Positions 991 through 39,109 of a DNA stretch of 64,000 bases are shown here, one piece after another. Below the pieces are notes generated by a model that saw only the letters and a list, made by a program, of their open reading frames with translations, was not told the origin of the DNA and searched no databases. A program made the position numbers and the translations under genes. Source of the stretch: an uncultured Erysipelotrichaceae bacterium (GTDB taxonomy: Bacteria; Bacillota_I; Bacilli_A; RFN20; DUOF01); the NCBI GenBank assembly GCA_964442785.1, contig CAYTZW010000002.1, positions 2,457 through 66,456 on the forward strand, given 5' to 3'. The first letter of the stretch is position 1. Every line of letters begins with the position of its first letter.

Positions 991-1587
991 TTAGCAATTT
1001 GTTAGTTTTTTCTTCAATTTATAAAGTATATAGTCTACTCTTTTTTCATTAATTCCTAAACAAGAAGCAATTTCTTTGTAACTTTTTCCTTCTTTTTTAA
1101 GTTTAACAACCATTCTTTCTTCCTTACTGAGTTTAGATAAAATGTCACAAAACTTTTCTTGTTTGCTCTTAAAATGATAATTTTCTTCCATTTCATTAAT
1201 AAGATATTTTGATTCAATAGTATCAATATAAGTTAACCCTTCAGAGTCTTGTATGCTAGAATCAAGAGAAACCGCAGTCGTTAAAGCTTTTCTATTATTA
1301 TAATTTAATTCTCGCACACATTTAATAATAATCCTTTCAACACATATTTTAAAATACGCCCTAAAAAAGCCTAAATGACTTTCATATTCATCTATAATCC
1401 CATCAAATTTAGACCATATCAAATAATATATATCTTCAATTTCCAGTTTATTAACATAAATTATATTCTTTTTTTCATTAATCCACTTATAAACTAATTT
1501 GTCATACCTTAATTTTAAAAACCTATAAGCTTCTTTATTTCCTTCTCTTATAAAGGTTATCAATAATTCATCAGGGCATTCATTCAA
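991..1587 (-). CDS. sigH: Sigma-70 family RNA polymerase sigma factor (SigH-like)
   Basis: 198 aa with a C-terminal region-4 HTH (SYKEIASCLGINEKRVDYILYKLKKKL). Position between rlmB and rpmG-secE-nusG matches Bacillus sigH. Confidence 0.75.
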   Translation of the reverse strand: MNECPDELLITFIREGNKEAYRFLKLRYDKLVYKWINEKKNIIYVNKLEIEDIYYLIWSKFDGIIDEYESHLGFFRAYFKICVERIIIKCVRELNYNNRKALTTAVSLDSSIQDSEGLTYIDTIESKYLINEMEENYHFKSKQEKFCDILSKLSKEERMVVKLKKEGKSYKEIASCLGINEKRVDYILYKLKKKLTNC

Positions 1588-1598
1588 TTTTATTCCTC

Positions 1599-2324
1599 CT
1601 ATAATGGATTTTGTTGTGAATGAATTTGATATAAAAGAATTCCTGTAGCGACCGAAACATTTAAAGAATTTACGTGTCCTACCATTGGCAACTTAACTTT
1701 ATAATCACAATGTTTTAATACCAGTTTGGAAATTCCTTTTCCTTCCGAACCGACAACTAGAGCAATTTTACCTTTACAATCAACTTCACGATAATCCAAA
1801 GAATTATCTTCTTCCGCTCCAACAACCCAAAAACCAATAGATTTAAGATTATCAATCAGGTTATTTAGATTAGTAACTTGGCAAACACGAATATGCTCAA
1901 TCGCTCCTGTAGAAACTTTAGCCACTGTTTCACTTAAAGGAGCATTTCCAAACTTTGGAACAAAAACACCGTCAACACCAATAGCATCACAAGTTCTTAA
2001 AATAGCCCCAAAATTATGAGGGTCTTCAATTCCGTCAGCAATAAGAATTATTGAATTTTCTTTGTTCTTTACTATTTTTTCAATACTTTGATAATCAGCG
2101 TATTCATAAGATTTTATCTTCGCAATAATACCTTGATGTAATCCTTTATTAGTCAATTTATTAGCTCTTGCTAAATCAATATATTTAACTTCTAAATGAT
2201 TATCTTCAATTAACTTTAAAATCTTATAATCTTGAAAATTATCAACTAACAAAATTTCTTCAATACCCTTGTTACTTTTTATCCTTTCACTTACAACATT
2301 TTTTCCATATATATATTGTGCCAT
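1599..2324 (-). CDS. rlmB: 23S rRNA (guanosine-2'-O)-methyltransferase RlmB, SpoU/TrmH family
   Basis: SpoU motifs (EDPHNFGAILRTCDAIG, VVGSEGKGIS, NVSVATGILLYQ). Start refined to MAQYIYGKN, which has an AAAGGAG RBS 7 nt upstream; the track ORF starts 19 codons earlier. Confidence 0.8.
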   Translation of the reverse strand: MAQYIYGKNVVSERIKSNKGIEEILLVDNFQDYKILKLIEDNHLEVKYIDLARANKLTNKGLHQGIIAKIKSYEYADYQSIEKIVKNKENSIILIADGIEDPHNFGAILRTCDAIGVDGVFVPKFGNAPLSETVAKVSTGAIEHIRVCQVTNLNNLIDNLKSIGFWVVGAEEDNSLDYREVDCKGKIALVVGSEGKGISKLVLKHCDYKVKLPMVGHVNSLNVSVATGILLYQIHSQQNPL

Positions 2325-2432
2325 AAAACCACTCCTTTTTGGTCTCATCTTTTTCTCAAATAAGTTTACCATTTTATTCAAAAAAGAAAAAGGAACAAAT
2401 GTTTAATTTTCAATTTGTTCCTTTCACAAAAT

Positions 2433-5400
2433 CTAATCAACACTTAGAAAAATAATTTTCTTTAAGGCATTTTTACCACTTGTTGAAGCCTCTAATTCAT
2501 CAATCTTTTCAACGATTAAATCATATAGCATTTTATTCTCAATCATAATTTTCTTATCATCAGGAATATCATTTTCATTAATCATAGAAGTTACAATAAC
2601 AGAATTAGCAAGTCCTACAAATAATCCGTCATCTCCAAATAAATCATTTACGTTATTTTCATTAACACTAAATGTTTCAAATGGTAACATTTCTTCTAAT
2701 TTGTCTTTTATTTGAAGTTCTTTTGTCCAATTAATTTCTACAATATCTAAATCATCAACAAAATTAGCAGTTGTAACCGTAGTAGCATCATTATCTAAAT
2801 CGATATCAGTTAATAAAGTCTTTAACCTATTTTTGATTTGTCTAGTTGCTACAGGTCCAAAAATAGAAGAATTGTTTAAAGTTACTTTAAATTCATCTAA
2901 TGTAGGTCCAAATGAAGAACTATTTTCATCAATATTATCTAAATCTTGTAAATCATCATAAACTTTAAATTCATTTCGATAATTAGCACTAAAAATATCT
3001 AGTGTTTCAAGATAAGACTCATAATCTGCATTTTCTTCCACAGTAGGATTATTTTCATCTTCAAAGAAATAAGGTTTTACACGTTCTTTAATTTCACTAA
3101 GCAAAGTATCTTCAACAATAGCTTTTACAATAGTAGTTTCTCCAGCAGCATTCATTGCTTCAGTCAATTTATCTCCGTCTTCTCCTAAACCATTACTATA
3201 TCCCACTTCTCCAGGATAATTAATAGCTTCAAAATTTGTTTTAGTAGCAACTTCCTTATCCCAATTAACATCTCCGTTGTTATCTTCATCAAAAATATCT
3301 AAGGAATTAATAAATGTTTCACTTAATAAAGCCGTTCCATCAGTTTTCTCTAAATCTTTTAAACCTTCTTTTATTTTCTTAGAAACTAATTCTTTAACAA
3401 TAGTAGTGGCCTTAGCACTTTCAATAAAATCAGGAACCATTTCAATCGTTACTTCTTTTTCTACTTCGTGATTTACATCATCAGTAATGTTCCATAAAAG
3501 TTCATTTACCGCTAAAAGTTCATCATTCCAATCAACATTTTGAGTTAATTCATTTTGTGTTTTCTTTTCATCATTTTCAAATTCTAACAACTCATTAACC
3601 TTATCAGTTATCGTAGGTCCTAATGTTTTTGTTTGTAATAAAGATGATACAATTACACTTAAATCATTAATTCGAGTTTCGGTATCTTTAGCAATAGGAT
3701 CCATTTTACCAAGTTGTTCAAAATCATCAACGGCTTCTTGATTATCTAAAGCTTTCACCAATAATTTAATTTCTTTTTTCCAATCGGCTTTGGTAAAATC
3801 TGCCGTGCTTTCACTTTTTAAAACTTCACCGTCAAACTCAAAAGAACTAAGTTCATCATTAATACGATTTGTTACGACCAAATAAATTATTTCCGAACTA
3901 AATAAAGTATCAATACTAGCATCATCTTTTAAAATATCAATCATAACCTCACTAACATCTACTTCATCTTCAAACAAGCCTTCAGTAGCTAGTAATCTAT
4001 ACGCTCTTAATAAACTGGTAATTTCATTTTTCCAAACAATATCATCATAATTAATTGAATCATCAATAGTTTCAATTTGTGATTTAATAATATCAGGGAA
4101 TATAGCCATAAATACTTCTGAATTAGTTATTGCATTACTAAGTTCTAAAACTTCATCTTTTTCACTATTAACTTCTAAAGTAGCAATATAATCATTAACA
4201 TCGAAATCATCTTCAAAAGCTCCACCGTCATAGAAGAATTTAGCAGCTATTAAAAGATTTTTCATTTCACTTGACCAATCAATATCTTCAGGTAAAGTCG
4301 CTGTTCCATTTTCCATCATAGACGTTAAGACATCTTCCAAAGTAGGTTCCACAATTTCAGGTACTAAAGATGTAATAATCTTAGATTGCCCCATTTTTTC
4401 ACCCATTACTTCAATAACATCGTTGTCTTTAGATAAAACCGCTTCTAATAATTCAACATCATTTTCAATATCTTCAATAACACCTTCATTTGATAAAAGA
4501 ATTGCTAAAGACACAACATTTTTAAGTTCACTAGACCAAACAACATCATCTAATTCTAAATCGCTTGAAGTATAATTTTTATCTAATGTTTCATTAAAAT
4601 ATTTCAATATAAAGGTTTCAGAAACATCACCCAATACTTGAGAAATCAAAGTAGACTCAAATAAATTATCAATCAATTCATCAACCTTTTCTTCATTAAG
4701 TTCTGATAAAAGTTCACTTCCCTTAGCAGACAATTCATATTCATTACTTTCTTCATTTAAAGTAATAATTCCCGCATCTTTTATTTTAGCAATAGAGTTT
4801 AAAATAGTTTTTAATTCACCTGCCAAAGTACTTTCTTCCACTGCAAGAGTAACCGTTTTTTCGCCACCCATATCTTCAATAAAATTATTAACAACTTTTT
4901 CAAACTTAGGTATCAAATAAGTATCATACAATTCATTTAATAAATCAGATTTTTCAATGTAAGAAACCAAAGAATCAACATATTCACTATCAAGTGTAGC
5001 GATAACATTATAGTAATTATCCGTGATTTCCGTTCCTTCAAAAACAGGTAATTTGACAATTTCTCCAATAATATTAAAGAAATTTTCAATTTCCTTAGCA
5101 AAATTAATTTTAGCAATATCAAATCCTTCTGGTAATTTCGTTTCTTTTTCAATCACTTTAACTCCAACATTGTCCATTAAAGTAACAAGTAAATCAACAC
5201 TAGCGATTTTATCACCTAAAAGTTGGAATTCTTCAGAACTTAAGCGACTTAAAATAGCCACCAAATCAATTTCACCACTTATAGATAAACCTTTACTTTC
5301 TAAAAGAATATAAGTATCAAAAGTAGCACTCAAATCACTTTGAAGATTAACTTTTTTTCCATATAATTTCATATTAGACATTACTTTAAAAAGATTTTTA

Positions 5401-5987
5401 TCCATATCAGCAACCGAAACTACCTTAGAAAAACTAGAATCCGTATAATATTTAGTTATTTCACAACTATTAAAATCATCAGAAACAAGACATTTAGTTT
5501 CACCATTATCTTCTCTTAAAGTTGAAATAGTACCCACAAAAGGAGTAGTTACCAATAAAACTATCAAAAAAGCATTTAAAGTACTAATCGCACTACCACC
5601 AAATCGAGATGCCCAAGTTTTTGGTTTTTTCTCTCCACTAAAGATAATTTTTCTAAAAATCCTTCTAAATATTAATTTAATAGGGAAAAGAACAATCATA
5701 AGAACTATCCAAACAAGTCCTGAAAAGAAAATTCTTAATAATCCCGATAAAGCTTCTTTCAGTTCTGCATTTGACATATATTCCGCTAATTCACTTTTCG
5801 TTTCTTCAGGAATGAAATCTACTATCAAACTAGAAAAAGTAGGAAGTACTATCCAAATAACTAAAAACAGAATTAAATTAAAGCACAAACCAAAAGTGGA
5901 TTTATACATTCCTTTCCATAATCCCCATAAAAATGAAAGACCTAAAAAAGCAAAAAATACTACATCTATAATCATTGAAATTTCCAT
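2433..5987 (-). CDS. Giant (1184 aa) acidic membrane protein: N-terminal CvpA-like 4-TM domain followed by about 1000 aa of Asp/Glu-rich internal repeats
   Basis: N-terminus MIIDVVFFAFLGLSFLWGLWKG resembles the CvpA family. Downstream there are about 8 repeats of 75-95 aa, each starting with D-x-x-W-[SKND]-x-E-[LIM]. Confidence 0.6.
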   Translation of the reverse strand: MEISMIIDVVFFAFLGLSFLWGLWKGMYKSTFGLCFNLILFLVIWIVLPTFSSLIVDFIPEETKSELAEYMSNAELKEALSGLLRIFFSGLVWIVLMIVLFPIKLIFRRIFRKIIFSGEKKPKTWASRFGGSAISTLNAFLIVLLVTTPFVGTISTLREDNGETKCLVSDDFNSCEITKYYTDSSFSKVVSVADMDKNLFKVMSNMKLYGKKVNLQSDLSATFDTYILLESKGLSISGEIDLVAILSRLSSEEFQLLGDKIASVDLLVTLMDNVGVKVIEKETKLPEGFDIAKINFAKEIENFFNIIGEIVKLPVFEGTEITDNYYNVIATLDSEYVDSLVSYIEKSDLLNELYDTYLIPKFEKVVNNFIEDMGGEKTVTLAVEESTLAGELKTILNSIAKIKDAGIITLNEESNEYELSAKGSELLSELNEEKVDELIDNLFESTLISQVLGDVSETFILKYFNETLDKNYTSSDLELDDVVWSSELKNVVSLAILLSNEGVIEDIENDVELLEAVLSKDNDVIEVMGEKMGQSKIITSLVPEIVEPTLEDVLTSMMENGTATLPEDIDWSSEMKNLLIAAKFFYDGGAFEDDFDVNDYIATLEVNSEKDEVLELSNAITNSEVFMAIFPDIIKSQIETIDDSINYDDIVWKNEITSLLRAYRLLATEGLFEDEVDVSEVMIDILKDDASIDTLFSSEIIYLVVTNRINDELSSFEFDGEVLKSESTADFTKADWKKEIKLLVKALDNQEAVDDFEQLGKMDPIAKDTETRINDLSVIVSSLLQTKTLGPTITDKVNELLEFENDEKKTQNELTQNVDWNDELLAVNELLWNITDDVNHEVEKEVTIEMVPDFIESAKATTIVKELVSKKIKEGLKDLEKTDGTALLSETFINSLDIFDEDNNGDVNWDKEVATKTNFEAINYPGEVGYSNGLGEDGDKLTEAMNAAGETTIVKAIVEDTLLSEIKERVKPYFFEDENNPTVEENADYESYLETLDIFSANYRNEFKVYDDLQDLDNIDENSSSFGPTLDEFKVTLNNSSIFGPVATRQIKNRLKTLLTDIDLDNDATTVTTANFVDDLDIVEINWTKELQIKDKLEEMLPFETFSVNENNVNDLFGDDGLFVGLANSVIVTSMINENDIPDDKKIMIENKMLYDLIVEKIDELEASTSGKNALKKIIFLSVD

Positions 5988-5990
5988 TTT

Positions 5991-6449
5991 TTATTCCTCC
6001 TCTTTTTTATTCTTGGAATTTAAAAATTCTACATACATTTTTTTGTAAAAAATTATTCCAAACAACATATATGCAAGAAAAATGAAATGAATCAAGAAAC
6101 TAACAACATCATATGAAAAGAAATACAAAAACATATCTAAAAAATAGAAAATAACGAAACTAATAAAAACTTTTATTCTTCCTTTTTGAGTTTCTTTCCA
6201 AATAAAAAAAATCATTAAAGATATACTAATGCTAATTGACAAATCAACTAAAATTCCTAATGCTGTAGAAGTATCAGAAATAATTCCCCCTAATTGATTA
6301 ACTAATCGATTAATTTCTAACAAATAAATCATTGTTTCATTGTTAAAGTAATAGAATATAGACCTTACCACCACAAAAATAGCAATAATCAACAAACTAT
6401 TTGTTGCTTTTAAATATTTCAAACGATACTTTTCAACTTCATCATTCAT
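5991..6449 (-). CDS. Small polytopic membrane protein of unknown function
   Basis: 152-aa ORF with several hydrophobic segments. Confidence 0.5.
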   Translation of the reverse strand: MNDEVEKYRLKYLKATNSLLIIAIFVVVRSIFYYFNNETMIYLLEINRLVNQLGGIISDTSTALGILVDLSISISISLMIFFIWKETQKGRIKVFISFVIFYFLDMFLYFFSYDVVSFLIHFIFLAYMLFGIIFYKKMYVEFLNSKNKKEEE

Positions 6450-6636
6450 TTTTTTATCACCTAATAATATTATATATTATTTTATTTTGATATGAAACAT
6501 TTTTTCTTTTTTCAGCACTAATGTAAACATTCTTTCAATATTTAATGAAAAAAAGCAAAAGTAATACACATTTATTAATTTTGATATTGTTAAAATTTTT
6601 TTACCCTTATAAAATAAGTTGCGTGAGGTGAAACCT

Positions 6637-7911
6637 ATGTATTTAAAAAGCAGAATTTTCAAAATTGCAACTTTCTTAATCGGACTTGCAATGCTATTGG
6701 GTATTGGTTTTGTAGTTTACGATAATTGGGATAACATTAAATATTCAACTAGAAAAACTATGGACAACAATACCAAAAATAGTTATATCAAAATCAATGA
6801 CGGAAAAAGGAACACTAATTCTTTAGATGTTGAAGTAAGAATTAGTACTACCAATATGAAAGCTAACTATATTTCTTATACAACTTGTTTTGACCCAACC
6901 GACGGAAAAATGGTTTGTAATGATTGGTCTAATTATGAAGATAATCCTTTTATTAATTACACTGGAAAAAACATCAACTCTGATGCTGCTTGGAAAAAAA
7001 CCATAAGACTATATGATGCTTTACCAGATGAGCAACTACAAGGAAGACACGTTGTTAAAGTAAAGTATTATTCACTAGAAAAACTTATTCCAGGAACTTC
7101 AGGAACTATTGAGTTACTAGAAACCAAATCAAATTATATTTACTACGATTCAATAGCCCCTAAAATATCTACCAATTCTGTAAATGCTTGGACAAACAAT
7201 GAATATTTAGAAGTAAAATATAGTGATCCTTCAAATCCAAGTTATGCTGCTTCAGGAGTTAAATCTATAAAATACAAATTATGTCTAGAATTTGAAAGTG
7301 TTAATAATAAAACAACTTGTACTGAAGAAGCACCTGAAGTAACAGTCAAAAAATCAGTAAACAACAAATTCAAAATCAACCTTGAATTACCAAAAACTTA
7401 CGTTACAATTACCGTTACTGATAAAGCAGGAAATCAAACAGTATTTTCCCAAATTCTAAGAAAAGATGATACTTCACCTGTGGTAACTATCAACCAAAAT
7501 AAAGATGAAGAAACCGGAAGATTATTATCAATAAGTGTTTCTGCAAGCGATACAAACTCAATGCTAAATACTTTAAAATATACATTCTCTAATAGTGATA
7601 TAAGGCCAAATGAAGCTGAATTTACAAACGAATTATTCGAATATGACAATGTCAATATTGACATTCCTACCAAAAATAAAACTTATTATCTATGGATAAG
7701 AGCAGAAGACTTTGCTGGAAATGTTACTTATAAAAATAGTGGTCCTTTATATATTTGTGATAGTGTCGAATCCTGTGCTAAACTAACAAACAAAAAAAGA
7801 GATTATACTTCTTTACTTTATGTATCATTAGGAGTTGCTGTTGTTGCTACTGTTTCAATCGGAGTAATTCTAGCATCTAATAACAAAAAAAAGAAAAAAG
7901 AAGAACAATAA
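6637..7911 (+). CDS. Surface protein with N-terminal signal anchor, HYR/DUF5011-like Ig-fold region and C-terminal TM anchor plus a basic tail
   Basis: Start refined to MYLKSR after a GAGGTGA RBS. Carries the motif YYLWIRAEDFAGNVTY shared with the paralogs at 31.8-39 kb. The C-terminus LGVAVVATVSIGVILASNNKKKKKEEQ is a TM segment followed by a basic tail. Confidence 0.6.
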   Translation: MYLKSRIFKIATFLIGLAMLLGIGFVVYDNWDNIKYSTRKTMDNNTKNSYIKINDGKRNTNSLDVEVRISTTNMKANYISYTTCFDPTDGKMVCNDWSNYEDNPFINYTGKNINSDAAWKKTIRLYDALPDEQLQGRHVVKVKYYSLEKLIPGTSGTIELLETKSNYIYYDSIAPKISTNSVNAWTNNEYLEVKYSDPSNPSYAASGVKSIKYKLCLEFESVNNKTTCTEEAPEVTVKKSVNNKFKINLELPKTYVTITVTDKAGNQTVFSQILRKDDTSPVVTINQNKDEETGRLLSISVSASDTNSMLNTLKYTFSNSDIRPNEAEFTNELFEYDNVNIDIPTKNKTYYLWIRAEDFAGNVTYKNSGPLYICDSVESCAKLTNKKRDYTSLLYVSLGVAVVATVSIGVILASNNKKKKKEEQ

Positions 7912-9230: not shown

Positions 9231-10043
9231 CTAACCATTATTTTCTTCTAAAGCCTTTTTTACTCTATCACGATTAGATTTCACAATGGTATTTAATATC
9301 AAACCAATATAAATACAAATACCAATAATTTGGAATAACAACAATAAAATAAGCAACCAAGTCAAAGGCCCATAACTATTATTGAAATTGCTCAAATATT
9401 TACTATATAAGCCAAATAAAGATATAGCAATAGTAATACTAACCGCACTAAATAATGCTCCTTGCCATATTTCTTTTAATTTCAAAAATTTATCACTAGC
9501 TAATGAATATAATAAACAAGTCATAATAAATAACATTCCAAATTCCAAGAATATTTGTAAAACTGAACCGATTGTTTTCACTTTGCTTTCTCCAATTAAA
9601 TATGCCATTAAAGCACTTAAAGTAAAAAACAAAAACAATAAAACAATAAAACAACCTGTAAGAGCTAAAGACCTTAACTTTTTTTTGATAAAAGTATTTT
9701 TTTTGTCATATAAATTATTACTAACATTAATAAAAGTGTTGAAACCATTAGAAATAATTACCATAGAAACTAAAAGGTTAAATAACAAAGATATAACATT
9801 TTCCCAAGAATGACTATTACTTAAAAAGTCAATCAAACTAGTAGCAATATTATTAGGAAAAAGTATTTTTAAATAGTTTTGTAAAAAATCTGCAGGAATA
9901 GTAAATAAGGATAAAAAGAATTGCATAATAGTTAAAGAAGGTACTAAAGCAAAAATCATATAAAACGCAAAACTAGAAGGAAATAATGACCCTTTAGTAT
10001 TTTTCATTCCTTTTACTATCTTTTTTAAAACCTCATCATACAT
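9231..10043 (-). CDS. YihY/BrkB family membrane protein
   Basis: 270 aa, polytopic; the N-terminus and hydropathy pattern resemble the YihY family. Confidence 0.55.
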   Translation of the reverse strand: MYDEVLKKIVKGMKNTKGSLFPSSFAFYMIFALVPSLTIMQFFLSLFTIPADFLQNYLKILFPNNIATSLIDFLSNSHSWENVISLLFNLLVSMVIISNGFNTFINVSNNLYDKKNTFIKKKLRSLALTGCFIVLLFLFFTLSALMAYLIGESKVKTIGSVLQIFLEFGMLFIMTCLLYSLASDKFLKLKEIWQGALFSAVSITIAISLFGLYSKYLSNFNNSYGPLTWLLILLLLFQIIGICIYIGLILNTIVKSNRDRVKKALEENNG

Positions 10044-15703: not shown

Positions 15704-18280
15704 CTATATCGCTTTTTCATTGTTAATTTTTTTAATGATTTCCATTACTAAAATAGGAGAAAAAGCTAATAATAAGGAAATTAAATAATAATTAAAAGGT
15801 AAATGAACAAGTCCAAAAATAGAAGCTAAACTAGGAATAAAAAGGATAATACCGATTAAAAAGAAAGAAACAATACTAGCTCCAACCATATATTTATTTG
15901 AGAAAACACCTATTTTAAATAGAGAATGAGAACTTCTCATATTATAAGCTTGAAAAATCTGTGTTGTTGACAAAGTAATAAAAGCCATTGTTTGTCCTGC
16001 TTTTAAAGAAAGATTGCTTTTTCCAAAATAAAAAGATAATAAAGTTAAAAAAGAAAACATTAAACCTTGAAGCATTATTTTTTTAACTAATCCATTAGCA
16101 AAAATATCTTCATCTTTAGGTTTAGGAGGATTATTCATAATATCAGCTTCTTGTTTTTCTACTCCTAAAGAAAGGGCAGGTAAAGTATCCGTTACTAAAT
16201 TAACCCACAATAATTGCATTGAAATAAGAGGAGTTTCTTTCCAAAGTAACATTGCAAAAAACATTGTAAATATTTCTCCCATATTTGTTCCTAATAAGAA
16301 TTCAATCGTTTTACGAATGTTATCATAAATACAACGACCTTCTTTTACACTTTCCACGATAGTAGAAAAATTATCATCAGTTAAAATCATATCAGAAGCT
16401 CTTTTAGCAACTTCAGTACCTGTTTTTCCCATAGAACAACCAATATCAGCTGCTTTTAAAGCAGGAGCATCATTAACTCCATCTCCTGTCATTGCAACTA
16501 CTTCATTTTGTTTTTGCCAAGCTTTTACAATTCTTAATTTATCCTTTGGAGTAACCCTAGCATAAACTTTTATACCACGTACTTTCTTACTTAGTTCATC
16601 ATCGGAAAGATGTTCTAATTCAGTTCCTGTTATGGCTTGAGCAGAAGATGAAGCAATACCAATTTTTTTAGCAATCGCCGTAGCTGTCAAAACATTATCC
16701 CCCGTAATCATAACAGTTTGAATACCTGCTTTTTTACATTCTTTTAAAGCTTCGATTACTTCTTCTCTTGGAGGGTCAATCATTGCCATAAGTCCTAGAA
16801 AAATCAAATCATTTTCGACTTTAGAAATATCCATTTTAGGTAAAACATCAACTTCTTTATAGGCTAGTGCTAAAACACGATTACCTTCGCTTGACATCTT
16901 CAAACATTGTTTTTCATAATCATTGCTAACTTTATTACATTTTTTTACTAATTGTTCATAAGCACCTTTAACTATTATCAAATATTTTCCATTGTATTTA
17001 TGAATAGTTGTCATTAGTTTCCTATCAGAATCAAAAGGAATTTCTCTTTCTTTAGGATAGTTATCTCGAACTTTTTTTACGGAAATTCCTACTTTTTTAG
17101 CACCTTGAATAATCGCTATTTCAGTAGGATCTCCCACATCTTCACTAGCATTAGAGCAAAGAATTGCAAATTCCAACATTTTCTTGGATTCACTTGTTAA
17201 ATTAGAACTTATTTTTTCAATTTTCTCTTTAGTATAAACTTCTGTTAAAGTCATTTTATTTTGAGTTAAAGTTCCCGTTTTATCAGAACAAATAACCGAA
17301 GCACTACCTAAAGTTTCAACTGCTGGAAGTTTCCTTATAATTGCATTTCTTTTAGCCATTCTTTGTACACTAAAAGCAAAAATAATGGTAACAATAGCAG
17401 GTAATCCTTCTGGAATAGCAGCAACTGCCAAAGAAATAGAAATCATAAAAATTTCTAAAGGTTTCATTTTTTCAAATAAACCTATTGAAAAAATAATAGC
17501 ACAAATGCTTATCGCCATTACTCCTAAAAACTTTCCTAAATTATCTAACTTTTTTTGCAAAGGAGTTTCATTTTTTTCTTGCTCATTTAACAAAGAAGCC
17601 ACATTTCCAATTTCCGTTTTCATTCCCGTGCTGACAACAATCATTTTACCACTACCAGCAACTACACTACTTCCACTATAGCACATATTACTTCTTTCAG
17701 CGACAGGAGTACTTGCAGGAACATATAAACTAATGTTTTTTTCTACAGGAAAAGACTCTCCTGTTAAACTAGATTCATCAACTTTTAAAGAATTTGCTTC
17801 TAGTAAGCGACCGTCCGCACAAACATAATCACCAGTTTCTAAAAAAACAATATCACCAACGACTACTTTATCAATTTCCAAATTTATCTTTTTTCCACCT
17901 CTTAAAACAGAAGTATGGGAAGCACTCATTTTTTGTAAGGCTTCCATTGCTTTCTCCGCCTTTGATTCCTGAATAACTCCTAAAGTAGCATTCATAAAAA
18001 CAATTACCAAGATAACAATAGGTTCTATATAATCAGTAGATTCTTTTGATTCAATCGCCACAAAAAAAGAAATAATCGCTGCAATTATTAAAATAATAAC
18101 CATTATATCTTTAAATTGGTCAATAAATTTAAAAAATACATTTTTCTTTTTTCCAGATTTTAAAACATTAAAGCCATCTCTTTTTAATCTAATTTCAGCT
18201 TCTTTTTCCTCTAAACCTTTTTCTTCATTAGATTGTAATTCTTTTACTACCTCAAAACTTCTTTTCGTATGCCAATCCAT
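15704..18280 (-). CDS. Cation-transporting P-type ATPase (Ca2+-type, P2A-like)
   Basis: 858 aa carrying DKTGTLT, TGDN, GDGVNDAPAL and PEGL motifs. Confidence 0.85.
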   Translation of the reverse strand: MDWHTKRSFEVVKELQSNEEKGLEEKEAEIRLKRDGFNVLKSGKKKNVFFKFIDQFKDIMVIILIIAAIISFFVAIESKESTDYIEPIVILVIVFMNATLGVIQESKAEKAMEALQKMSASHTSVLRGGKKINLEIDKVVVGDIVFLETGDYVCADGRLLEANSLKVDESSLTGESFPVEKNISLYVPASTPVAERSNMCYSGSSVVAGSGKMIVVSTGMKTEIGNVASLLNEQEKNETPLQKKLDNLGKFLGVMAISICAIIFSIGLFEKMKPLEIFMISISLAVAAIPEGLPAIVTIIFAFSVQRMAKRNAIIRKLPAVETLGSASVICSDKTGTLTQNKMTLTEVYTKEKIEKISSNLTSESKKMLEFAILCSNASEDVGDPTEIAIIQGAKKVGISVKKVRDNYPKEREIPFDSDRKLMTTIHKYNGKYLIIVKGAYEQLVKKCNKVSNDYEKQCLKMSSEGNRVLALAYKEVDVLPKMDISKVENDLIFLGLMAMIDPPREEVIEALKECKKAGIQTVMITGDNVLTATAIAKKIGIASSSAQAITGTELEHLSDDELSKKVRGIKVYARVTPKDKLRIVKAWQKQNEVVAMTGDGVNDAPALKAADIGCSMGKTGTEVAKRASDMILTDDNFSTIVESVKEGRCIYDNIRKTIEFLLGTNMGEIFTMFFAMLLWKETPLISMQLLWVNLVTDTLPALSLGVEKQEADIMNNPPKPKDEDIFANGLVKKIMLQGLMFSFLTLLSFYFGKSNLSLKAGQTMAFITLSTTQIFQAYNMRSSHSLFKIGVFSNKYMVGASIVSFFLIGIILFIPSLASIFGLVHLPFNYYLISLLLAFSPILVMEIIKKINNEKAI

Positions 18281-31782: not shown

Positions 31783-34305
31783 TTAGTTATGTGCTTTTTT
31801 GTGTTTTTTAATGACAATTACTTCAATAGCTAACAAAGAAGAAATTATAATCATTGAAACAAATATCATATAGTTAGATTTTGTAATATTTTCTTTAATT
31901 ACAATGTTAGAAGTAGATAAGGTAACAGGTTTAGTACTTTCTTCTTCAACAGGAGTTTCAGTTTCTAATTCGAGAGCAAATGTTATAGTAGAATTGCCAC
32001 TATTTGTAATATTAATAGACCTAGATTTAGTGAAAATAGTTGCTAAGTTTGTACCACTTAATTCTACATACAACTTGACTTCCCCTATTAATCCTTGTGG
32101 AGTAACTAAAGAAGATGTAAAGAAAGAAGAAGCAGCGATGCTAACCCCATATTTATCAAAAGCATCACTTAAATTACTATCATATAAATCAGGTTTACCG
32201 ATAAAATATCTGATAGTTCCATTTTTATATGCTTCTTGAATACTGTTAGAAGTTGCTTTTGTAAAAGTTATTTTTCCATTGCTAATGGAAGCGGTTGCAA
32301 AAATATTACTCATTGTAGGTGGCAGTATTGTATACGAATATCTTAAATAAGAAGATGCAAAAGACATACTGGTGTCAGGAACTTTTCCTGAATAGGTTGC
32401 AACATTATCAGCATTATCCTTTCCTACATTATAAATCCATAAATAATAAGTTCCTTGTTCTGAAACTATAGGAGCTGTAGTAGTAAAAGAAACATTATAA
32501 GCTGTATTTGATGTAAATGTTCTTACAAAACTCGAATAAGAAGGAGCGGAAGTTGAATTGTTCCAAGCATACATATATTGAGTAGGAGAAGAACAATCAT
32601 ATATACCAGAACTAGCTGATTGATTTTTTTCTTCTGTTAATTGAAAACTTATTGAGGAACCTGAACTAATAGTAGAAACATTACTTGTATACCAAACAGG
32701 TTTTGTTTTATCAATAGTTAAATATACAGATACACCATTTCCTGTTTTATCACTGACTAAGATTTCATAAATTCCTTCATCAGATAAAGTTCCATATGTA
32801 TAACTCGTTCCTGCTGAGTCTAAACTTGTATATTCTTCATAAGCACTAAGTGTTTCAGAAACAGTAACGCCTAAAAGAGCTTGATTATCAGTAATTATTA
32901 AAGAACAAGATGCATTTTTATAAGTAGGAGAACTTGAAGAAGTAGACAACACTGTTCCACCACAAGTAACACTAGGAGCGGTATTATCAATAACTAAATA
33001 TCCAGTCGTAGTATTACCAGTGGCGTCTTTGACGATAATTTTATAACTACCTTCAGTAGATAAAGTACCATAGGTGAATTTTGTCCCTGAAATTGCATCT
33101 GTTACATCTCCATAAATTTCATATTGTGATAATGCTTTATTATCGGTAAATACTAAAGAACAAGATTTGCTATAACTTGGAGAAGTAGATGAAGACGAAA
33201 GGGTAATTGAACCACATTTAATCACAGGAGCTGTTGTATCTAAAATAAGGGTAAAAAGAACTTCGGTATAGTTTCCTGATGTATCATAAACCGTAAAAAG
33301 ATTTCCACCCTCAAGTAAAGAACCATAGGTATAACTAGTACCTGATATTTCTTTATCCGAATAAGAGCCATTTTCTATTTCTGCAGTAAATTCTGATAAT
33401 CCAATATTATCTTTAAAAATTACTGTACAAGATGAATACAAGGTTACACTTGTGGTGGTAGAATAGGTATTACTACCACAAGTAATGGTAGGTGGAGTTG
33501 TATCTGATGATACAGTAAGGTGAACAATAAAAGAAATTTCTCCTTTACTATAATATATACCAGCAGTAATTTTATAGGTACCTGGGGATAAAGTATAAGC
33601 ATTTTCATAAATAGTTAAGCTATCAGTAACAGTTTTTCCAAAAGTAGTGGTTCCTGAAATTTCAAAATGGTCTCCACTTAACATAACATTCGTGGCAGAA
33701 GTAGTTAAGTATAATTCTTTTCCTTTTTGTTCAAGAACATAATAATATGTTCCGTCAACACCTATGAGACTATCAATTCCATTGTATACATTTGTTTCTA
33801 TGTAAACATTTAAAGTAATTTCACATATCCAATAATAATCATAACTGTCATTAATAAGTGTAACATCAGCTACTACAATATTAAAAGAACCTTCATATAA
33901 ATAAATTTCAAACTCTCCACAAAAATAATCAGAAGGGTCATCATTACCCATATATTCATAGTTAGAACCACTGCTAGCAGAAAATCCACCGTCATCTGTA
34001 TATGCGTGTAACATAACAAAATCGCCTTCCCTTATAATTATATCTTCGGTAAAAGAATAATATCCACTATCATCAGGATCATATAAATTTTCATTCCATT
34101 TAAAATCATAAGCATTATTATATAACTTTTGTCTAAAACTATTATCAGAATGAACATTTGCTGTTGCAGCTGCGTTTCCTGTTTCATTTGGAACATCTCC
34201 AGACCAGTCATTAGCTTTTGCCATATTATTTGACAAAAATACTAGACTTATAAAGGACAAGCATAACGATAATAAAATTATTCCTACTCTATTCTCCTTT
34301 TTCAT
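31783..34305 (-). CDS. Surface protein paralog A: signal peptide, HYR/DUF5011-like Ig-fold repeats, conserved C-terminal module with TM anchor and basic tail (KKHKKAHN)
   Basis: Start refined to MKKENRV, which has a GGGGGTG RBS. Repeats of about 95 aa begin DTTAPxIxCG and carry D-x-x-GN motifs. The C-terminal roughly 200 aa is near-identical to paralog B. Confidence 0.7.
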   Translation of the reverse strand: MKKENRVGIILLSLCLSFISLVFLSNNMAKANDWSGDVPNETGNAAATANVHSDNSFRQKLYNNAYDFKWNENLYDPDDSGYYSFTEDIIIREGDFVMLHAYTDDGGFSASSGSNYEYMGNDDPSDYFCGEFEIYLYEGSFNIVVADVTLINDSYDYYWICEITLNVYIETNVYNGIDSLIGVDGTYYYVLEQKGKELYLTTSATNVMLSGDHFEISGTTTFGKTVTDSLTIYENAYTLSPGTYKITAGIYYSKGEISFIVHLTVSSDTTPPTITCGSNTYSTTTSVTLYSSCTVIFKDNIGLSEFTAEIENGSYSDKEISGTSYTYGSLLEGGNLFTVYDTSGNYTEVLFTLILDTTAPVIKCGSITLSSSSTSPSYSKSCSLVFTDNKALSQYEIYGDVTDAISGTKFTYGTLSTEGSYKIIVKDATGNTTTGYLVIDNTAPSVTCGGTVLSTSSSSPTYKNASCSLIITDNQALLGVTVSETLSAYEEYTSLDSAGTSYTYGTLSDEGIYEILVSDKTGNGVSVYLTIDKTKPVWYTSNVSTISSGSSISFQLTEEKNQSASSGIYDCSSPTQYMYAWNNSTSAPSYSSFVRTFTSNTAYNVSFTTTAPIVSEQGTYYLWIYNVGKDNADNVATYSGKVPDTSMSFASSYLRYSYTILPPTMSNIFATASISNGKITFTKATSNSIQEAYKNGTIRYFIGKPDLYDSNLSDAFDKYGVSIAASSFFTSSLVTPQGLIGEVKLYVELSGTNLATIFTKSRSINITNSGNSTITFALELETETPVEEESTKPVTLSTSNIVIKENITKSNYMIFVSMIIISSLLAIEVIVIKKHKKAHN

Positions 34306-34361
34306 AAATAACACCCCCAAGATTGCATCTTTTGTAAGTATACATCTCTTTTACATTGTAC

Positions 34362-35831: not shown

Positions 35832-38800
35832 TTATAATGCTTTTTTATGTTTCTTTATGACAATTACTTCAAGTGCTAACAAAGAAGAAATTATTATCAT
35901 TGAAACAAATAACATATAATTAGGTTTTCTAATATTTTCTTTAATTACGATGTTAGAAGTAGATAAGGTTATTTCTTTAACTTCATTACTAGCCACTTCA
36001 GTTTCTGAAGAATTAAAGATTATATTAGCACTACCAGTATTAGTTATATTAATACTACCTGATTTAAGAATAAGAGGATTTGTATCTTTATCATCTAATT
36101 TAAGCATAATGTATAACTCAACATTTCCTATTAATCCTTGAGGAGTAGTTATTGCTCCTTTTTCAAAGAATTTAGACGCTGGCATATTATTGGAAGGACT
36201 ATAAGTAACTCCATATTTTTTAAATCCGTCTTCTAATAAAACATCAGTAGAATAGTTACCATATTTACCTACAAAATAAACCGCTATTCCATTTTTATAT
36301 TCTTCTTGGATATTATTATTTCCTGATATAGTAAAGGATATTTGTCCATTGTTAAGCTTAGCATCGTTTATAATAGCCTTACTAGGAACGGTTCCGTCAT
36401 CATTTATCTCAATAGCAATAGAAGTCATATTACCTGCATAATCATAAGCACTAATACTATATGAACCTGCTGAAGATATAATATATCTATCTCCTGTTCC
36501 TGTGTAATTATCCGCTCCTGATACTACATAGTTTTTAAACATTTTATCTTCAAAAAATAACGTTAAGGGAACATTACTATGATAACTTATTTGCTTATCT
36601 TCTAGTACTTCTCCACTAGAAGAATTAAGTCGTATATTAGGAGATGTGGTATCTGCTAAAATAGTGTATTTATATTTTAATGTACCATAATATATTTCAC
36701 TATAATAATGAGGAGTTTTCCCTGAAAAAATTGCAACATTGCCTGAAGTATCTGCTCCTCGATTGAAAATCCAAAGATAATATGTCGTATTTTGAGTAAC
36801 TTTTGGAGCAGTTGTCATAAATGAAACTTTTGTAGTAGTGGTAGATATAAATGCTGGCTTTAAATCCCAAGTTGGTGATTCAGTATCGCTTATTGACCAA
36901 TCGTACCAATAAGTATAAGTACCATTATACAATTCAATATTATCTGTAATTTCAAAATAAATAGGGGTATTTGTTACTACTTCATTTATATCTTCAGTAT
37001 ACCAAACTGGTGGTTCTGTATCTGCATCAGTATCTGTATCTGTATTAGAGCCACTTGAAACATTAATAGTATATTTGTATTTAACATAATCAGTATAATA
37101 TGAAGTTGAATAATAAGGCTCTTTTCCTGAAAAAGTCGAAATATTGCCTACATAGTCTTTTCCTATGCTAGAAATCCATAAGTAATAGGTTTTACTATAA
37201 GTAACCATTGGTGCTGTAATTGAAAAAGAAACTTTTGTAGCAGATGTTTCTATAAAAGTGGTTAACCAAGTAGGTTTAGAATTTTTTGTAGTAGACCAGC
37301 CATAACAATAAAATTCACTTGCAGTTAGAAAACTATATAGACGTCTATTATCGGTTAATTGTACATATACACTATCTCCTGAATTGATTTCCGTTACATC
37401 TTCAGTATACCAAACTGGAGCTTCTGTATCATTACTATCTGCCAAAACAGTATAGTTATATATAACTTTGCTACTATAAGAAGTGTTACTAGATGCTGGG
37501 GATTTTCCCTTAAAAGTTGCAAGATTGCCAGCAGCATCTTTTCCTTGGTAATAAATATAAAAACTATATACAGCATCTTCTGTTACATATGGTGCTTTTA
37601 TGCTGAAACTAATAGTATTTGAAGTTTGCAAAGTGAAATTTGATTCAAGAGTGGAAGTATACCAACCATATTTATAATAAGTTGATGCAGATGAAAAACC
37701 CCATATTTTTTTATTATCAGTTAATTGAAAATTAAGAATAGTTCCTGAGTTGATTTCCGTTATATCTTCTGTATACCAAACTGGAGCTTCATTATCTTCT
37801 TTAATGTGATATTCATATATAAGGTATAAATAATCCCCGCAAGAATATGGTTCTTTTCCTGAAAATGTTGCAACATTACCTGCTAAATCCTTGCCTCTCT
37901 TATAAATCCATAAATAATAATTTGTATTAGATTTTACAAATGGTGCAGTTGTAGTAAAAGAAATCTTTGTTGGCGATACTATAGAATATTTATACGACCA
38001 AGAAGATGGAGTTTCAGTAGAACTAGTGGACCAACTATAGCCATAATAGGAATAGTCTCTATTAGCATACCTATAATATTCTATTTCAAATAAGTCTGTT
38101 AATTGAAAATTTAATTCTTGACCTGATTCTATTTCATAAATATCATCTGTATACCAAATTGGTGCCTCATCATCACCAATAATATAATATTCATACACAA
38201 CACACGAGTCATATGTATCTCCATATGAAATAGGTTGTTTTCCTGAAAATGTTGCAAGATTTCCTGAATCATCTTTACCTCTATGTTGAAGCCACAAATA
38301 ATATATTCCACTTTCAACTTTACTTGGTGTTGTTTTAAAATGATACATACTTGAAGAATGACCAATATATTGTTCGGACCAATATGATGGTTTTGTGGAA
38401 GAACTAGTAGACCAACCATATCGGTAATAATATGAATAGTAAGTAGAAGTAGAAGTTTCTTCTTCAATATAAATATTTGTTCCTGTTAATTTAAATTCAA
38501 GAGGTGTCCCACTATATATTTTATACAAATCATTAGTATTCCAAACAGGAGCGGTCGAAGAAGTAGTTCCACCAGAACTGCTTGACCCACCTGAAGAACC
38601 AGAACTGCCTGATTCACTCGAACTACCCGAACTACTTTCTATTATTTTTGTAACTGTTATCGTGATATTATAAGTAACATAAACTTCCTTATTGGAGCCA
38701 TAATAATCAATAACAGTAAAAGTATAAGTTCCTGTTGTATTTAAATTATAGTAATAATCTCCTCTTAAAGTTACACAAGAAGAATAATATCCACAATAAG

Positions 38801-39057
38801 AGCCATTATCGGCAACTATAGTAACTGAAACTGGTCCTTTTAAACTAAGACTTTTGGTAACAACATCACCTTTTTCATACATAACGCCATAATATTCATA
38901 TGAATTTCCTTCAGCATCATCTATCATAATGCAAGCATTTTCTTCCAAAACATCATCAACTCCTGCTTTTATGTTTTGACTTGTTACCAAAAACATACCT
39001 AAAAAAGCCATAAATAAGGCTAATAAAGCTACTTTTTCCTTTTTCATATATAACACC
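35832..39057 (-). CDS. Surface protein paralog B (about 1075 aa): signal peptide, Ser/Gly-rich linker, 5-6 repeats of about 115 aa of a HYR/DUF5011-like module, conserved C-terminal anchor module
   Basis: Start refined to MKKEKVALL, which has a GGGGGTG RBS. Repeats read APVWYTEDIxEIxSG...QLTD...YYLWI..GKD.AGN.ATFSGK. The C-terminal module is near-identical to paralog A. Confidence 0.7.
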
Positions 39058-39109
39058 CCCAAGATTATGTCTTTCACACCCAAAAGTACATATCTTTTTC
39101 ACAAAGTCC

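What the first reader, a model, noticed from the sequence alone, without database searches (positions are those of the whole stretch)
2433..5987. 1184-aa protein fusing a CvpA-like membrane domain to about 1000 aa of acidic tandem repeats with a recurring D-x-x-W-x-x-E motif
Immediately downstream of rlmB lies a protein whose first 160 aa look like CvpA (4 TM). The remainder is extremely Asp/Glu-rich with about 8 degenerate repeats of 75-95 aa, each opening with D-[DV]-x-W-[SKND]-x-E-[LIM]-x-x-L (for example DDVVWSSELKNVV, EDIDWSSEMKNLL, DDIVWKNEITSLL, KADWKKEIKLL, NVDWNDELLAV, DVNWDKEV, EINWTKELQI). I do not recognise this repeat family. Such a polyanionic, membrane-tethered protein could bind cations, bind cell-wall polymers, or act as a scaffold.
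Basis: seen in the sequence. Interest (0 to 1): 0.55.

Follow-up and report, generated by a model that had tools for sequence, protein, structure and literature searches.

The report
Membrane-anchored acidic helical-repeat surface protein
This is a real, conserved gene for a membrane protein that anchors through a CvpA-type four-helix domain and most likely displays a long, rigid, strongly acidic rod of previously undescribed helical repeats outside the cell; its function is unknown, but it is probably a structural or binding scaffold, not an enzyme.

Summary
Window 2433..5987 (minus strand) encodes an 1184-aa protein. It has four N-terminal membrane helices of the CvpA/Colicin_V type and a 1,024-residue tail with 21.5% Asp+Glu and net charge -134.

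The tail is not disordered low-complexity sequence. AlphaFold2 predicts an all-alpha repeat structure (pLDDT 79 for the full length; 88.5 and pTM 0.85 for three repeats).

Profile comparisons show seven clear repeats of about 85 aa (residues 206-811). Four degenerate units follow (812-1184); three keep the W-x-x-E opening.

The repeat matches nothing in Pfam, NCBIfam, PHROGs, PADLOC or PDB sequences. Foldseek finds only generic HEAT/ARM-like solenoids at non-significant scores.

Charge statistics on 41 relatives place the tail outside the cytoplasm, as predicted for CvpA and accepted for MarP.

The family is small: 38 representatives among 1.84 billion proteins. Named members come from Erysipelotrichaceae, Acholeplasmataceae and Eubacteriales MAGs and are all annotated hypothetical.

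In the close clade the gene follows a conserved 152-aa membrane protein and precedes rlmB-sigH-secE-nusG.

My best reading is a non-enzymatic extracytoplasmic scaffold or spacer. It is a new variant of a known kind, of moderate interest.

The parts
6469..6496 (-). Promoter-like site (TTCATA-16-TATAAT, 10 of 12 matches) upstream of the small membrane-protein gene; likely start of a two-gene operon
   Evidence: (consensus match only; such sites are not enriched over shuffles)
5991..6449 (-). 152-aa multi-pass membrane protein with no family match. It is conserved immediately upstream of the large gene in the close clade, and its stop lies 3 nt before the large gene's ATG. Candidate partner.
   Evidence: alignment A5 at 29-70% identity
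5523..5987 (-). Residues 1-155: CvpA/Colicin_V-type four-helix membrane domain. Family-invariant motifs are G22-x-x-[KR]-G26, R128-x-x-G131 and P149. Predicted topology is N-out/C-out.
5373..5522 (-). Residues 156-205: juxtamembrane alpha/beta element. It carries a Cys166/Cys175 pair (conserved in the close clade only) and the family-wide D196-x-x-x-F200 motif. Together with the membrane domain and the first repeat it is the part shared by all distant relatives.
3555..5372 (-). Residues 206-811: seven clearly homologous helical repeats of about 85 aa, each with 4-5 helices. Consensus core: DWKEELKNLLNAIKTLAKNGILEENFDLNKLLSTLDDEEIDELVDSLFSSKLISSVITEILEE. Motif Trp at 484, 571, 652 and 736.
   Evidence: (hhalign E 1e-8 to 1e-14 against the family repeat profile, which includes this clade's own units)
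2436..3554 (-). Residues 812-1184: four degenerate helical units. Three keep the W-x-x-E opening (W820, W909, W1087); one has lost the Trp. Matches to the repeat profile are weak but mostly in register.
   Evidence: E 0.005-0.06
2380..2427 (-). 13-bp hairpin followed by UUUUUCUUUUUU directly after the stop codon: a terminator-like element between the large gene and rlmB
   Evidence: -12.9 kcal/mol, z = -2.98. The terminator scan missed it because the loop is 12 nt.

Best explanation
The gene encodes a cytoplasmic-membrane protein. Its CvpA-type four-helix domain anchors it with both ends outside. Its roughly 1,030-residue C-terminal part folds into a continuous, rigid, strongly acidic all-alpha repeat rod (a solenoid of about 11 units of about 85 aa) on the outer face of the membrane.

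It most likely works as a non-enzymatic extracytoplasmic scaffold or spacer. In this reading it is a CvpA-family envelope protein whose variable C-terminal partner-binding segment has been expanded into a long interaction surface. It is probably made and used together with the small membrane protein encoded just upstream.

Shown or predicted here: gene reality, domain layout, repeat homology, helical fold, topology by charge bias, family distribution.

Inferred: rod-like geometry, scaffold or spacer role, partnership with the 152-aa protein.
For: - Membrane domain: Pfam Colicin_V in the window protein at E=6.5e-4 and in 33 of 41 relatives, best 2.3e-11. Relative P0009 scores 39.1 bits, above the cutoff.
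- Topology: over 41 relatives, loops 1 and 3 have K+R of 39% and 26%. The N-terminus, loop 2 and the post-TM4 segment have 1%, 4.7% and 6%. This matches the predicted periplasmic C-terminus of E. coli CvpA, whose variable C-terminus was proposed to bind periplasmic partners (bioRxiv 10.1101/2020.09.25.314492). It also matches MarP, which has 4 TM helices plus a periplasmic domain (PMC4992679).
- Fold: AF2 gives pLDDT 79.1 for the full length, all helical after residue 215 apart from two short beta-hairpins (205-214, 408-419) and a few isolated bridge residues. The three-repeat fragment gives pLDDT 88.5 and pTM 0.85, which implies fixed packing between repeats.
- Repeat homology. An HMM seeded only from residues 475-726 finds units in Acholeplasmataceae and other relatives and none in 275 shuffled controls.
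- Not an enzyme: His is 0.1% and there are two Cys in the tail. No catalytic family matched. The recurring repeat positions are W/E/L/G/S.
- Charge under selection: all 41 relatives have acidic tails (D+E 12-23% against K+R 5-13.5%) despite 13-19% identity for most.
- Operon: the upstream gene is conserved, a terminator-like hairpin follows the large gene, and the ribosome-binding site is strong.
Against: - No ligand, partner or phenotype is known for any member.
- The window protein's own Pfam score is below the gathering cutoff.
- Topology rests on the positive-inside rule and on analogy, not on experiment.
- AF2 confidence comes from a shallow alignment for the tail: about 6 informative sequences.
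- The whole-chain pTM is 0.43, so the overall shape is not defined.
- I had no access to model coordinates, so rod length and surface charge were not measured.
- Gene neighbourhoods of distant members differ, so context gives no functional clue across the family.
Confidence: 0.55

Rival explanations
1. Polyanionic cation buffer. The exposed acidic rod mainly binds and concentrates divalent cations (Mg2+/Ca2+) or polyamines at the membrane surface, as a protein counterpart of teichoic acids.
For: - Net charge is -134, and acidity is kept in all 41 relatives.
- Acidic loops of the type G-x-F-E-D-D-F-D follow the first helix of units 5 and 6.
- A P-type cation ATPase lies about 10 kb away in conserved synteny.
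Against: - No recurrent EF-hand, dockerin or DxDxDG-type loop is present. The acidic loop residues are not kept in Acholeplasmataceae units (S-E-T-F-D-F).
- Other exported proteins of this organism are also acidic, so low pI is partly a compartment trait.
- A folded 11-unit solenoid kept without indels at 62% identity is more than a charge reservoir needs.
Confidence: 0.18
2. Surface adhesin or shield. The rod projects from the cell to bind host or substrate surfaces, or to block phage and antimicrobial access. Repeat number tunes its reach.
For: - Two Acholeplasmataceae variants differ by exactly one 77-aa unit (P0011 1420 aa, P0050 1497 aa).
- That homologue sits among large Flg_new/LRR surface-protein genes.
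- Tail length varies from about 90 to about 1,230 aa across the 41 aligned relatives and exceeds 1,700 aa in P0045.
Against: - In the window's clade, length and sequence are tightly conserved.
- The gene lies in a housekeeping neighbourhood: rlmB, a sigH-like gene, secE in the related loci, and nusG.
- No known adhesin or wall-anchoring domain is present.
- No PADLOC match.
Confidence: 0.15
3. The tail is cytoplasmic (N-in/C-in) and serves as an intracellular scaffold tethered to the membrane, like eukaryotic HEAT/ARM proteins.
For: - The nearest Foldseek matches are cytosolic or nuclear solenoids.
- The neighbouring genes concern translation and transcription.
Against: - The charge bias of the loops points the other way in all 41 relatives.
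- CvpA predictions and MarP both place the C-terminus outside.
- The Foldseek matches are non-significant (E >= 1e-3, TM <= 0.15; fragment E >= 1.6).
Confidence: 0.07
4. Artefact or junk: an assembly chimera, or a fast-evolving disordered low-complexity ORF with no specific function.
For: Annotated only as a hypothetical protein. Few relatives were found.
Against: - Full-length co-linear homologues occur in independent assemblies at 62-83% identity with almost no indels.
- Synteny is conserved.
- No DNA-level repeats are present.
- The fold is predicted with good confidence.
Confidence: 0.02

Closest known systems
CvpA (colicin V production protein, Pfam PF02674), e.g. E. coli CvpA
   Same: Four-helix inner-membrane domain with a predicted outside C-terminus. 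Glycine-rich motifs are conserved. The C-terminal extracytoplasmic segment varies between species and has been proposed to bind partners.
   Different: Typical CvpA is about 160-200 aa (my knowledge). This protein is 1184 aa, with about 1,030 aa of extra helical repeats. Its own Pfam score is below the cutoff. Its TM1 polar position is Asn/Asp/Ser/Thr across the family, whereas the paper read reports an aspartate conserved at nearly 100% in CvpA; whether that is the same position was not checked. The function of CvpA itself is unknown.
MarP (Rv3671c) of Mycobacterium tuberculosis
   Same: Same architecture principle: four N-terminal membrane helices carry a large extracytoplasmic C-terminal domain. 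One relative (P0026) weakly matches the first 78 positions of the NCBIfam MarP model, E=6.9e-4. That the MarP anchor is Pfam Colicin_V is from my memory.
   Different: MarP's outside domain is a trypsin-like serine protease. Here it is an all-alpha, non-catalytic repeat array with no protease match.
HEAT/ARM/TOG-type alpha-solenoids (importin-beta, SF3B1, CAND1, CLASP TOG)
   Same: A long array of stacked helices. These are the top Foldseek matches for the full-length model and for the fragment.
   Different: - The matches are not significant: E >= 1e-3 with TM <= 0.15 for the full length, and E >= 1.6 with TM <= 0.29 for the fragment.
- The unit here is about 85 aa with 4-5 helices. HEAT/ARM units are about 40-47 aa with 2-3 helices (my knowledge).
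- No HEAT/ARM profile matched.
- This protein is predicted to be extracytoplasmic and bacterial.
Helical repeat modules of Gram-positive giant surface proteins (FIVAR, DUF1542, GA)
   Same: Tandem helical units of about 70-125 aa in exported proteins (my knowledge).
   Different: No match in the window protein. Only one relative hits DUF1542, at E=0.0039. The anchor is a polytopic N-terminal domain, not a signal peptide plus LPXTG.

Membership tests
CvpA / Colicin_V (PF02674) | Match to the Pfam model at or above the gathering score (29.3 bits) | tested here: not met
   The window protein scores 20.2 bits, E=6.5e-4, covering model positions 1-122 of 144.
CvpA / Colicin_V (PF02674) | Homology to the family through relatives (transitive) | tested here: met
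   33 of 41 relatives found with the window protein's profile hit PF02674 at E<=0.01, best 2.3e-11. P0009 scores 39.1 bits.
CvpA / Colicin_V (PF02674) | Four membrane helices with N-terminus and C-terminus outside | tested here: met
   Four hydrophobic segments. The positive-inside bias is consistent in all 41 relatives. This is a prediction only, with no experiment.
CvpA / Colicin_V (PF02674) | Conserved GXXXG, three near-invariant Gly and one Asp, as described for CvpA in bioRxiv 10.1101/2020.09.25.314492 | tested here: inconclusive
   G22-x-x-x-G26 is invariant and G131 is near-invariant (40 of 41) across the 41 sequences. The TM1 polar position 8 is Asn 17, Asp 8, Ser 5, Thr 4. I did not align to a bona fide CvpA sequence, so correspondence of positions is not proven.
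MarP-type membrane protease | C-terminal trypsin-like serine protease domain | tested here: not met
   No protease family in Pfam or NCBIfam. The tail is all-alpha.
HEAT/ARM alpha-solenoid repeats | Sequence profile match to HEAT/ARM repeat families | tested here: not met
   None in Pfam at E<=1 for the window protein and none recurrent among 41 relatives.
HEAT/ARM alpha-solenoid repeats | Significant structural superposition on solved HEAT/ARM proteins | tested here: not met
   Full length: best E=1e-3, TM 0.11-0.15. Three-repeat fragment: best E=1.6, TM <= 0.29. The resemblance is generic only.
Known Gram-positive helical surface repeats (FIVAR, DUF1542, GA) | Profile match to these Pfam families | tested here: not met
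   No hit in the window protein. One relative matches DUF1542 at E=0.0039.
Intrinsically disordered acidic repeat protein | Low predicted order and low hydrophobic content | tested here: not met
   L+I+V+F make up 31.5% of the tail. pLDDT is >= 70 for 995 of 1184 residues, and only 284-324 falls below 50.
Phage or defence-system protein | Match to PHROGs or PADLOC families, or to viral folds | tested here: not met
   PHROGs gives only a 14-residue match at E=0.0074. PADLOC gives none. BFVD best E=0.96.

The most novel reading that the evidence does not exclude
The family is a so-far unrecognised class of bacterial extracytoplasmic alpha-solenoids. In this reading it is a rigid polyanionic rod on a CvpA-type membrane module that, in Mollicutes-related Firmicutes (Erysipelotrichaceae, Acholeplasmataceae), takes over a job usually done by anionic wall polymers. 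That job could be cation homeostasis at the membrane surface, or setting the distance between the membrane and the outer envelope layers. The rod might also couple what it binds outside to the still-unknown activity of the CvpA membrane domain.
Probability: 0.12. Interest if true: 0.65.

Novelty: new variant of a known kind. Interest (0 to 1): 0.4.

Why it matters
CvpA is widespread and matters for gut colonisation and bile resistance in enteric pathogens, yet its mechanism is unknown. Its variable outside C-terminus is suspected to be the working end.

This family shows the extreme case: the C-terminus expanded into a roughly 1,000-residue folded interaction surface. Finding what that surface binds could show what CvpA-type membrane modules do.

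It also adds an undescribed helical repeat (W-x-x-E-[LI] ... G ... S-x-[LI]-[LI]) to the small set of extracytoplasmic solenoids in bacteria. It also gives a tentative description to about 40 sequence clusters that currently have no name or are annotated hypothetical.

The practical importance is limited until a carrier organism can be grown or the ectodomain is studied in vitro.

Tried and rejected
- BLASTP self-comparison gave only the identity hit. I replaced it with profile-profile comparison of segments.
- The first repeat HMM was circular because it was trained on the units it found. I replaced it with a seed limited to three units, tested on other proteins and on shuffled sequences.
- Word-indexed protein searches with the 41-sequence alignment and with the 50-unit repeat alignment added little or nothing. 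All three searches of that kind are now used.
- The genome-collection scan found a single close relative because its peptide patterns were clade-specific.
- PDB sequence searches with the full-length profile and the repeat profile found nothing meaningful.
- Foldseek against PDB (full length and fragment) and against viral models found nothing specific.
- PHROGs, PADLOC and NCBIfam gave no family for the tail.
- Rfam found nothing in the window, and no tRNA genes were found.
- A literature search for recent CvpA work returned mostly unrelated acronyms.
- I looked for EF-hand or dockerin-like loops by eye. DEDNNGDVNWDKE at residues 900-912 is close, but the Glu falls at position 13 where position 12 would be expected, and the motif is not recurrent, so I rejected it as evidence for Ca2+ binding.
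- No paralogue of either the anchor or the repeat occurs elsewhere in the window.
Full report
**What is there.** The ORF at 2433..5987 lies on the minus strand and encodes 1184 aa from an ATG. A strong GAGGAGG ribosome-binding site sits inside the end of the upstream gene.

On that strand the gene order is:
- a 152-aa membrane protein (5991..6449);
- the large gene;
- a 13-bp hairpin followed by a U-run (2380..2427; -12.9 kcal/mol, z = -2.98);
- rlmB (TIGR00186, E=3.9e-76);
- a SigH-like sigma factor, whose NCBIfam scores are below the SigH cutoffs;
- nusG.

So the large gene is upstream of rlmB in the direction of transcription, not downstream. It probably forms a two-gene operon with the small membrane protein.

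**Composition and motif.** Residues 1-158 hold four hydrophobic segments. Residues 161-1184 have 21.5% Asp+Glu, 8.4% Lys+Arg and a net charge of -134. The other ORFs of the window average 11.0% and 11.5%. The window's signal-peptide proteins are mildly acidic (net -11 to -41), so part of the acidity is a trait of exported proteins in this organism. This protein is far more extreme.

The tail has eight Trp. Seven are followed by Glu at +3. These motif Trp lie 81-89 residues apart, with one double spacing. By my arithmetic this is a roughly 2e-6 event given the Glu frequency.

**Are the repeats real?** I cut the alignment of four close homologues into about 85-aa segments and compared them as profiles. 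Units 475/563/643 match each other at E about 5e-7, in register. Pairs 206/289, 289/381, 289/475 and 643/727 match at about 1e-3 in register, and 206/475 and 381/475 match more weakly in register. 812/900 aligns in register over its later helices, and 900/1078 over the opening motif.

An HMM seeded only from residues 475-726 of the four close homologues detects further units:
- residues 206-469 of P0003/P0004 (E 8e-7 to 1e-2);
- the roughly 30%-identical homologues P0005/P0006;
- Acholeplasmataceae proteins P0011/P0050 (E 4e-5 to 7e-3);
- P0026, P0027, P0043 and P0045.

It finds nothing in 275 shuffled sequences.

After iteration, seven units are found in the window protein between residues 213 and 800. 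The four C-terminal segments (812-1184) match the family repeat profile only weakly (E 0.005-0.06), though mostly in register. I count seven clear units plus four degenerate ones.

The consensus core is DWKEELKNLLNAIKTLAKNGILEENFDLNKLLSTLDDEEIDELVDSLFSSKLISSVITEILEE.

No repeat of about 255 nt exists at the DNA level. The duplications are therefore old, and repeat collapse or chimerism is not an issue.

**Is it a real gene?** Independent assemblies carry co-linear proteins of 1179-1184 aa at 83% and 62% identity with almost no indels. One is from an Erysipelotrichaceae MAG (SVBH01000004.1). Homologues at about 30% identity (P0005 1287 aa, P0006 1100 aa) align over most of the length.

Synteny is conserved in this clade: small membrane protein, large gene, rlmB, sigma factor, (rpmG), secE, nusG. 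The small membrane protein is 29-70% identical across these loci and always ends within 0-4 nt of the large gene's start.

**The membrane domain.** Pfam Colicin_V matches residues 7-155 at E=6.5e-4 and 20.2 bits, below the 29.3-bit cutoff.

An exhaustive profile search of 1.84 billion representative proteins found 38 proteins at E<=1e-3. Most share only the first 230 or so residues. Of the 41 sequences aligned, 33 match Colicin_V at E<=0.01, best 2.3e-11, and P0009 scores 39.1 bits.

G22-x-x-[KR]-G26 and P149 are invariant across the family, and R128 and G131 are kept in 40 of 41 sequences. One relative weakly matches the N-terminal 78 positions of the MarP model.

I conclude that the anchor is a divergent CvpA-family domain.

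**Topology.** Across the 41 sequences, loops 1 and 3 contain 39% and 26% Lys+Arg. The N-terminus, loop 2 and the 45-85 residues after TM4 contain 1%, 4.7% and 6%, and are acidic.

By the positive-inside rule the protein is N-out/C-out, with the tail outside the cytoplasm. This agrees with the predicted periplasmic C-terminus of E. coli CvpA, whose variable C-terminus was proposed to bind periplasmic partners (bioRxiv 10.1101/2020.09.25.314492). It also agrees with MarP, which has four N-terminal helices and a periplasmic protease domain (PMC4992679).

**The fold of the tail.** AlphaFold2 on the 41-sequence alignment gives mean pLDDT 79.1, with 995 of 1184 residues at 70 or above. Only residues 284-324 fall below 50. 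Apart from two short beta-hairpins (205-214, 408-419) and a few isolated bridge residues, the tail is helical. Each unit has a roughly 17-residue helix starting at the Trp, one or two short helices, and two longer helices.

A three-unit fragment (residues 470-735) gives pLDDT 88.5 and pTM 0.85. That implies a fixed arrangement of neighbouring units, not beads on a string.

Foldseek against the PDB returns only generic HEAT/ARM solenoids for the full length (SF3B1, importins, CAND1; best E=1e-3, TM <= 0.15). For the fragment nothing is significant (best E=1.6, TM <= 0.29; CLASP TOG, PUF, 14-3-3, TPR). The viral library gives nothing.

Sequence profiles of the whole protein and of the repeat find nothing in the PDB. 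No Pfam, NCBIfam, PHROGs or PADLOC family covers the tail in this protein or its relatives.

The repeat is therefore an undescribed helical repeat whose general architecture is solenoid-like. Whole-chain pTM is 0.43 and I had no coordinates, so overall curvature and length are not established.

**The family.** All 41 relatives combine the four-helix anchor with an acidic tail (D+E 12-23%, K+R 5-13.5%). Tails run from about 90 to about 1,230 aa, and exceed 1,700 aa in P0045.

NCBI names, where present, are 'hypothetical protein' from Erysipelotrichaceae, Acholeplasmataceae and Eubacteriales MAGs.

Two Acholeplasmataceae variants differ by exactly one 77-aa unit (1420 and 1497 aa).

Gene neighbourhoods of distant members differ:
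- P0014 sits in front of rsmH and a PBP gene;
- P0042 sits in front of parE/parC;
- P0050 sits among Flg_new/LRR surface-protein genes.

Context therefore gives no family-wide functional clue. No paralogue is present elsewhere in the window.

**How it most likely works.** The tail has almost no His or Cys. Its recurring positions (W, E, L, G, S) look structural, and no catalytic family matches, so an enzyme is unlikely.

Bulk negative charge is kept while sequence identity falls below 20%, so the charge itself seems to be selected.

The most economical reading is a membrane-anchored, extracytoplasmic, non-enzymatic scaffold or spacer. That would make it a CvpA-type envelope protein with its partner-binding C-terminus expanded into a long acidic interaction surface, possibly working with the co-transcribed small membrane protein.

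Narrower versions are possible but untested: a cation buffer, or an adhesin or shield. I found no recurrent Ca2+-binding loop. The tight length conservation and housekeeping context in this clade argue somewhat against a variable adhesin.

A cytoplasmic location, disorder or an artefact are all poorly supported.

**Verdict.** Its picture of a floppy polyanion should be replaced by a folded helical-repeat rod.

The finding is a new variant of a known kind: a CvpA-family anchor, as in MarP, carrying a novel repeat ectodomain. It is of moderate interest. It is a clean, rare, uncharacterised family that could help explain CvpA, but nothing here yet points to a new mechanism.

Noticed in passing
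window 1599-2381 (-): The mechanical ORF for rlmB starts at a TTG and gives 260 aa. Homologues in related loci are 241-244 aa. The true start is probably the Met of MAQYIYG, 19 codons downstream (about position 2324). That would leave a roughly 108-nt spacer holding the terminator-like hairpin.
   Followed up: partly
window 6619-7911 (+): A divergently transcribed 430-aa protein has an N-terminal membrane helix, weak Ig-like domain hints (Big_3_2, Big_13, E>0.01) and a C-terminal membrane helix with a Lys-rich tail. A gene of similar size and orientation sits at the same place in L002 (423 aa) and L008 (419 aa). No significant family match.
   Followed up: partly
window 31783-34320 (-) and 35832-39083 (-): Two large acidic proteins (845 and 1083 aa, net -41 and -38) with signal-peptide-like N-termini and similar leader sequences have no Pfam match at E<=0.001. 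They may be paralogous surface proteins of unknown type.
   Followed up: no
L009/L010 5001-9494 (P0050) versus P0011: Acholeplasmataceae homologues of the large protein differ by exactly one near-identical 77-aa repeat unit (1497 and 1420 aa). This is recent copy-number change, in contrast with the fixed length in the window's clade.
   Followed up: partly
window 9231-10043 (-) and 15704-18280 (-); L008 1-3067: A BrkB-family membrane protein and a P-type cation ATPase (Cation_ATPase_N/C type) lie within about 12 kb of the large gene, both in the window and in the distant clade member L008. The wider neighbourhood is therefore syntenic.
   Followed up: no
window 991-1587 (-): The sigma factor next to rlmB resembles SigH only weakly (TIGR02859 55.8 bits against a cutoff of 294.8). 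It occupies the SigH position of the Firmicutes rlmB-sigH-secE-nusG cluster (gene order from my knowledge of Bacillus).
   Followed up: no
window 1-64000: No tRNA gene (ARAGORN) and no Rfam family at gathering score in the whole 64-kb window. G+C is about 21-34% in the first 10 kb, the only stretch profiled.
   Followed up: yes
window 40776-41819 (-): A 347-aa protein matches the lysylphosphatidylglycerol synthase transmembrane region (LPG_synthase_TM, E=3.2e-30). This hints that the organism modifies its membrane surface charge.
   Followed up: no
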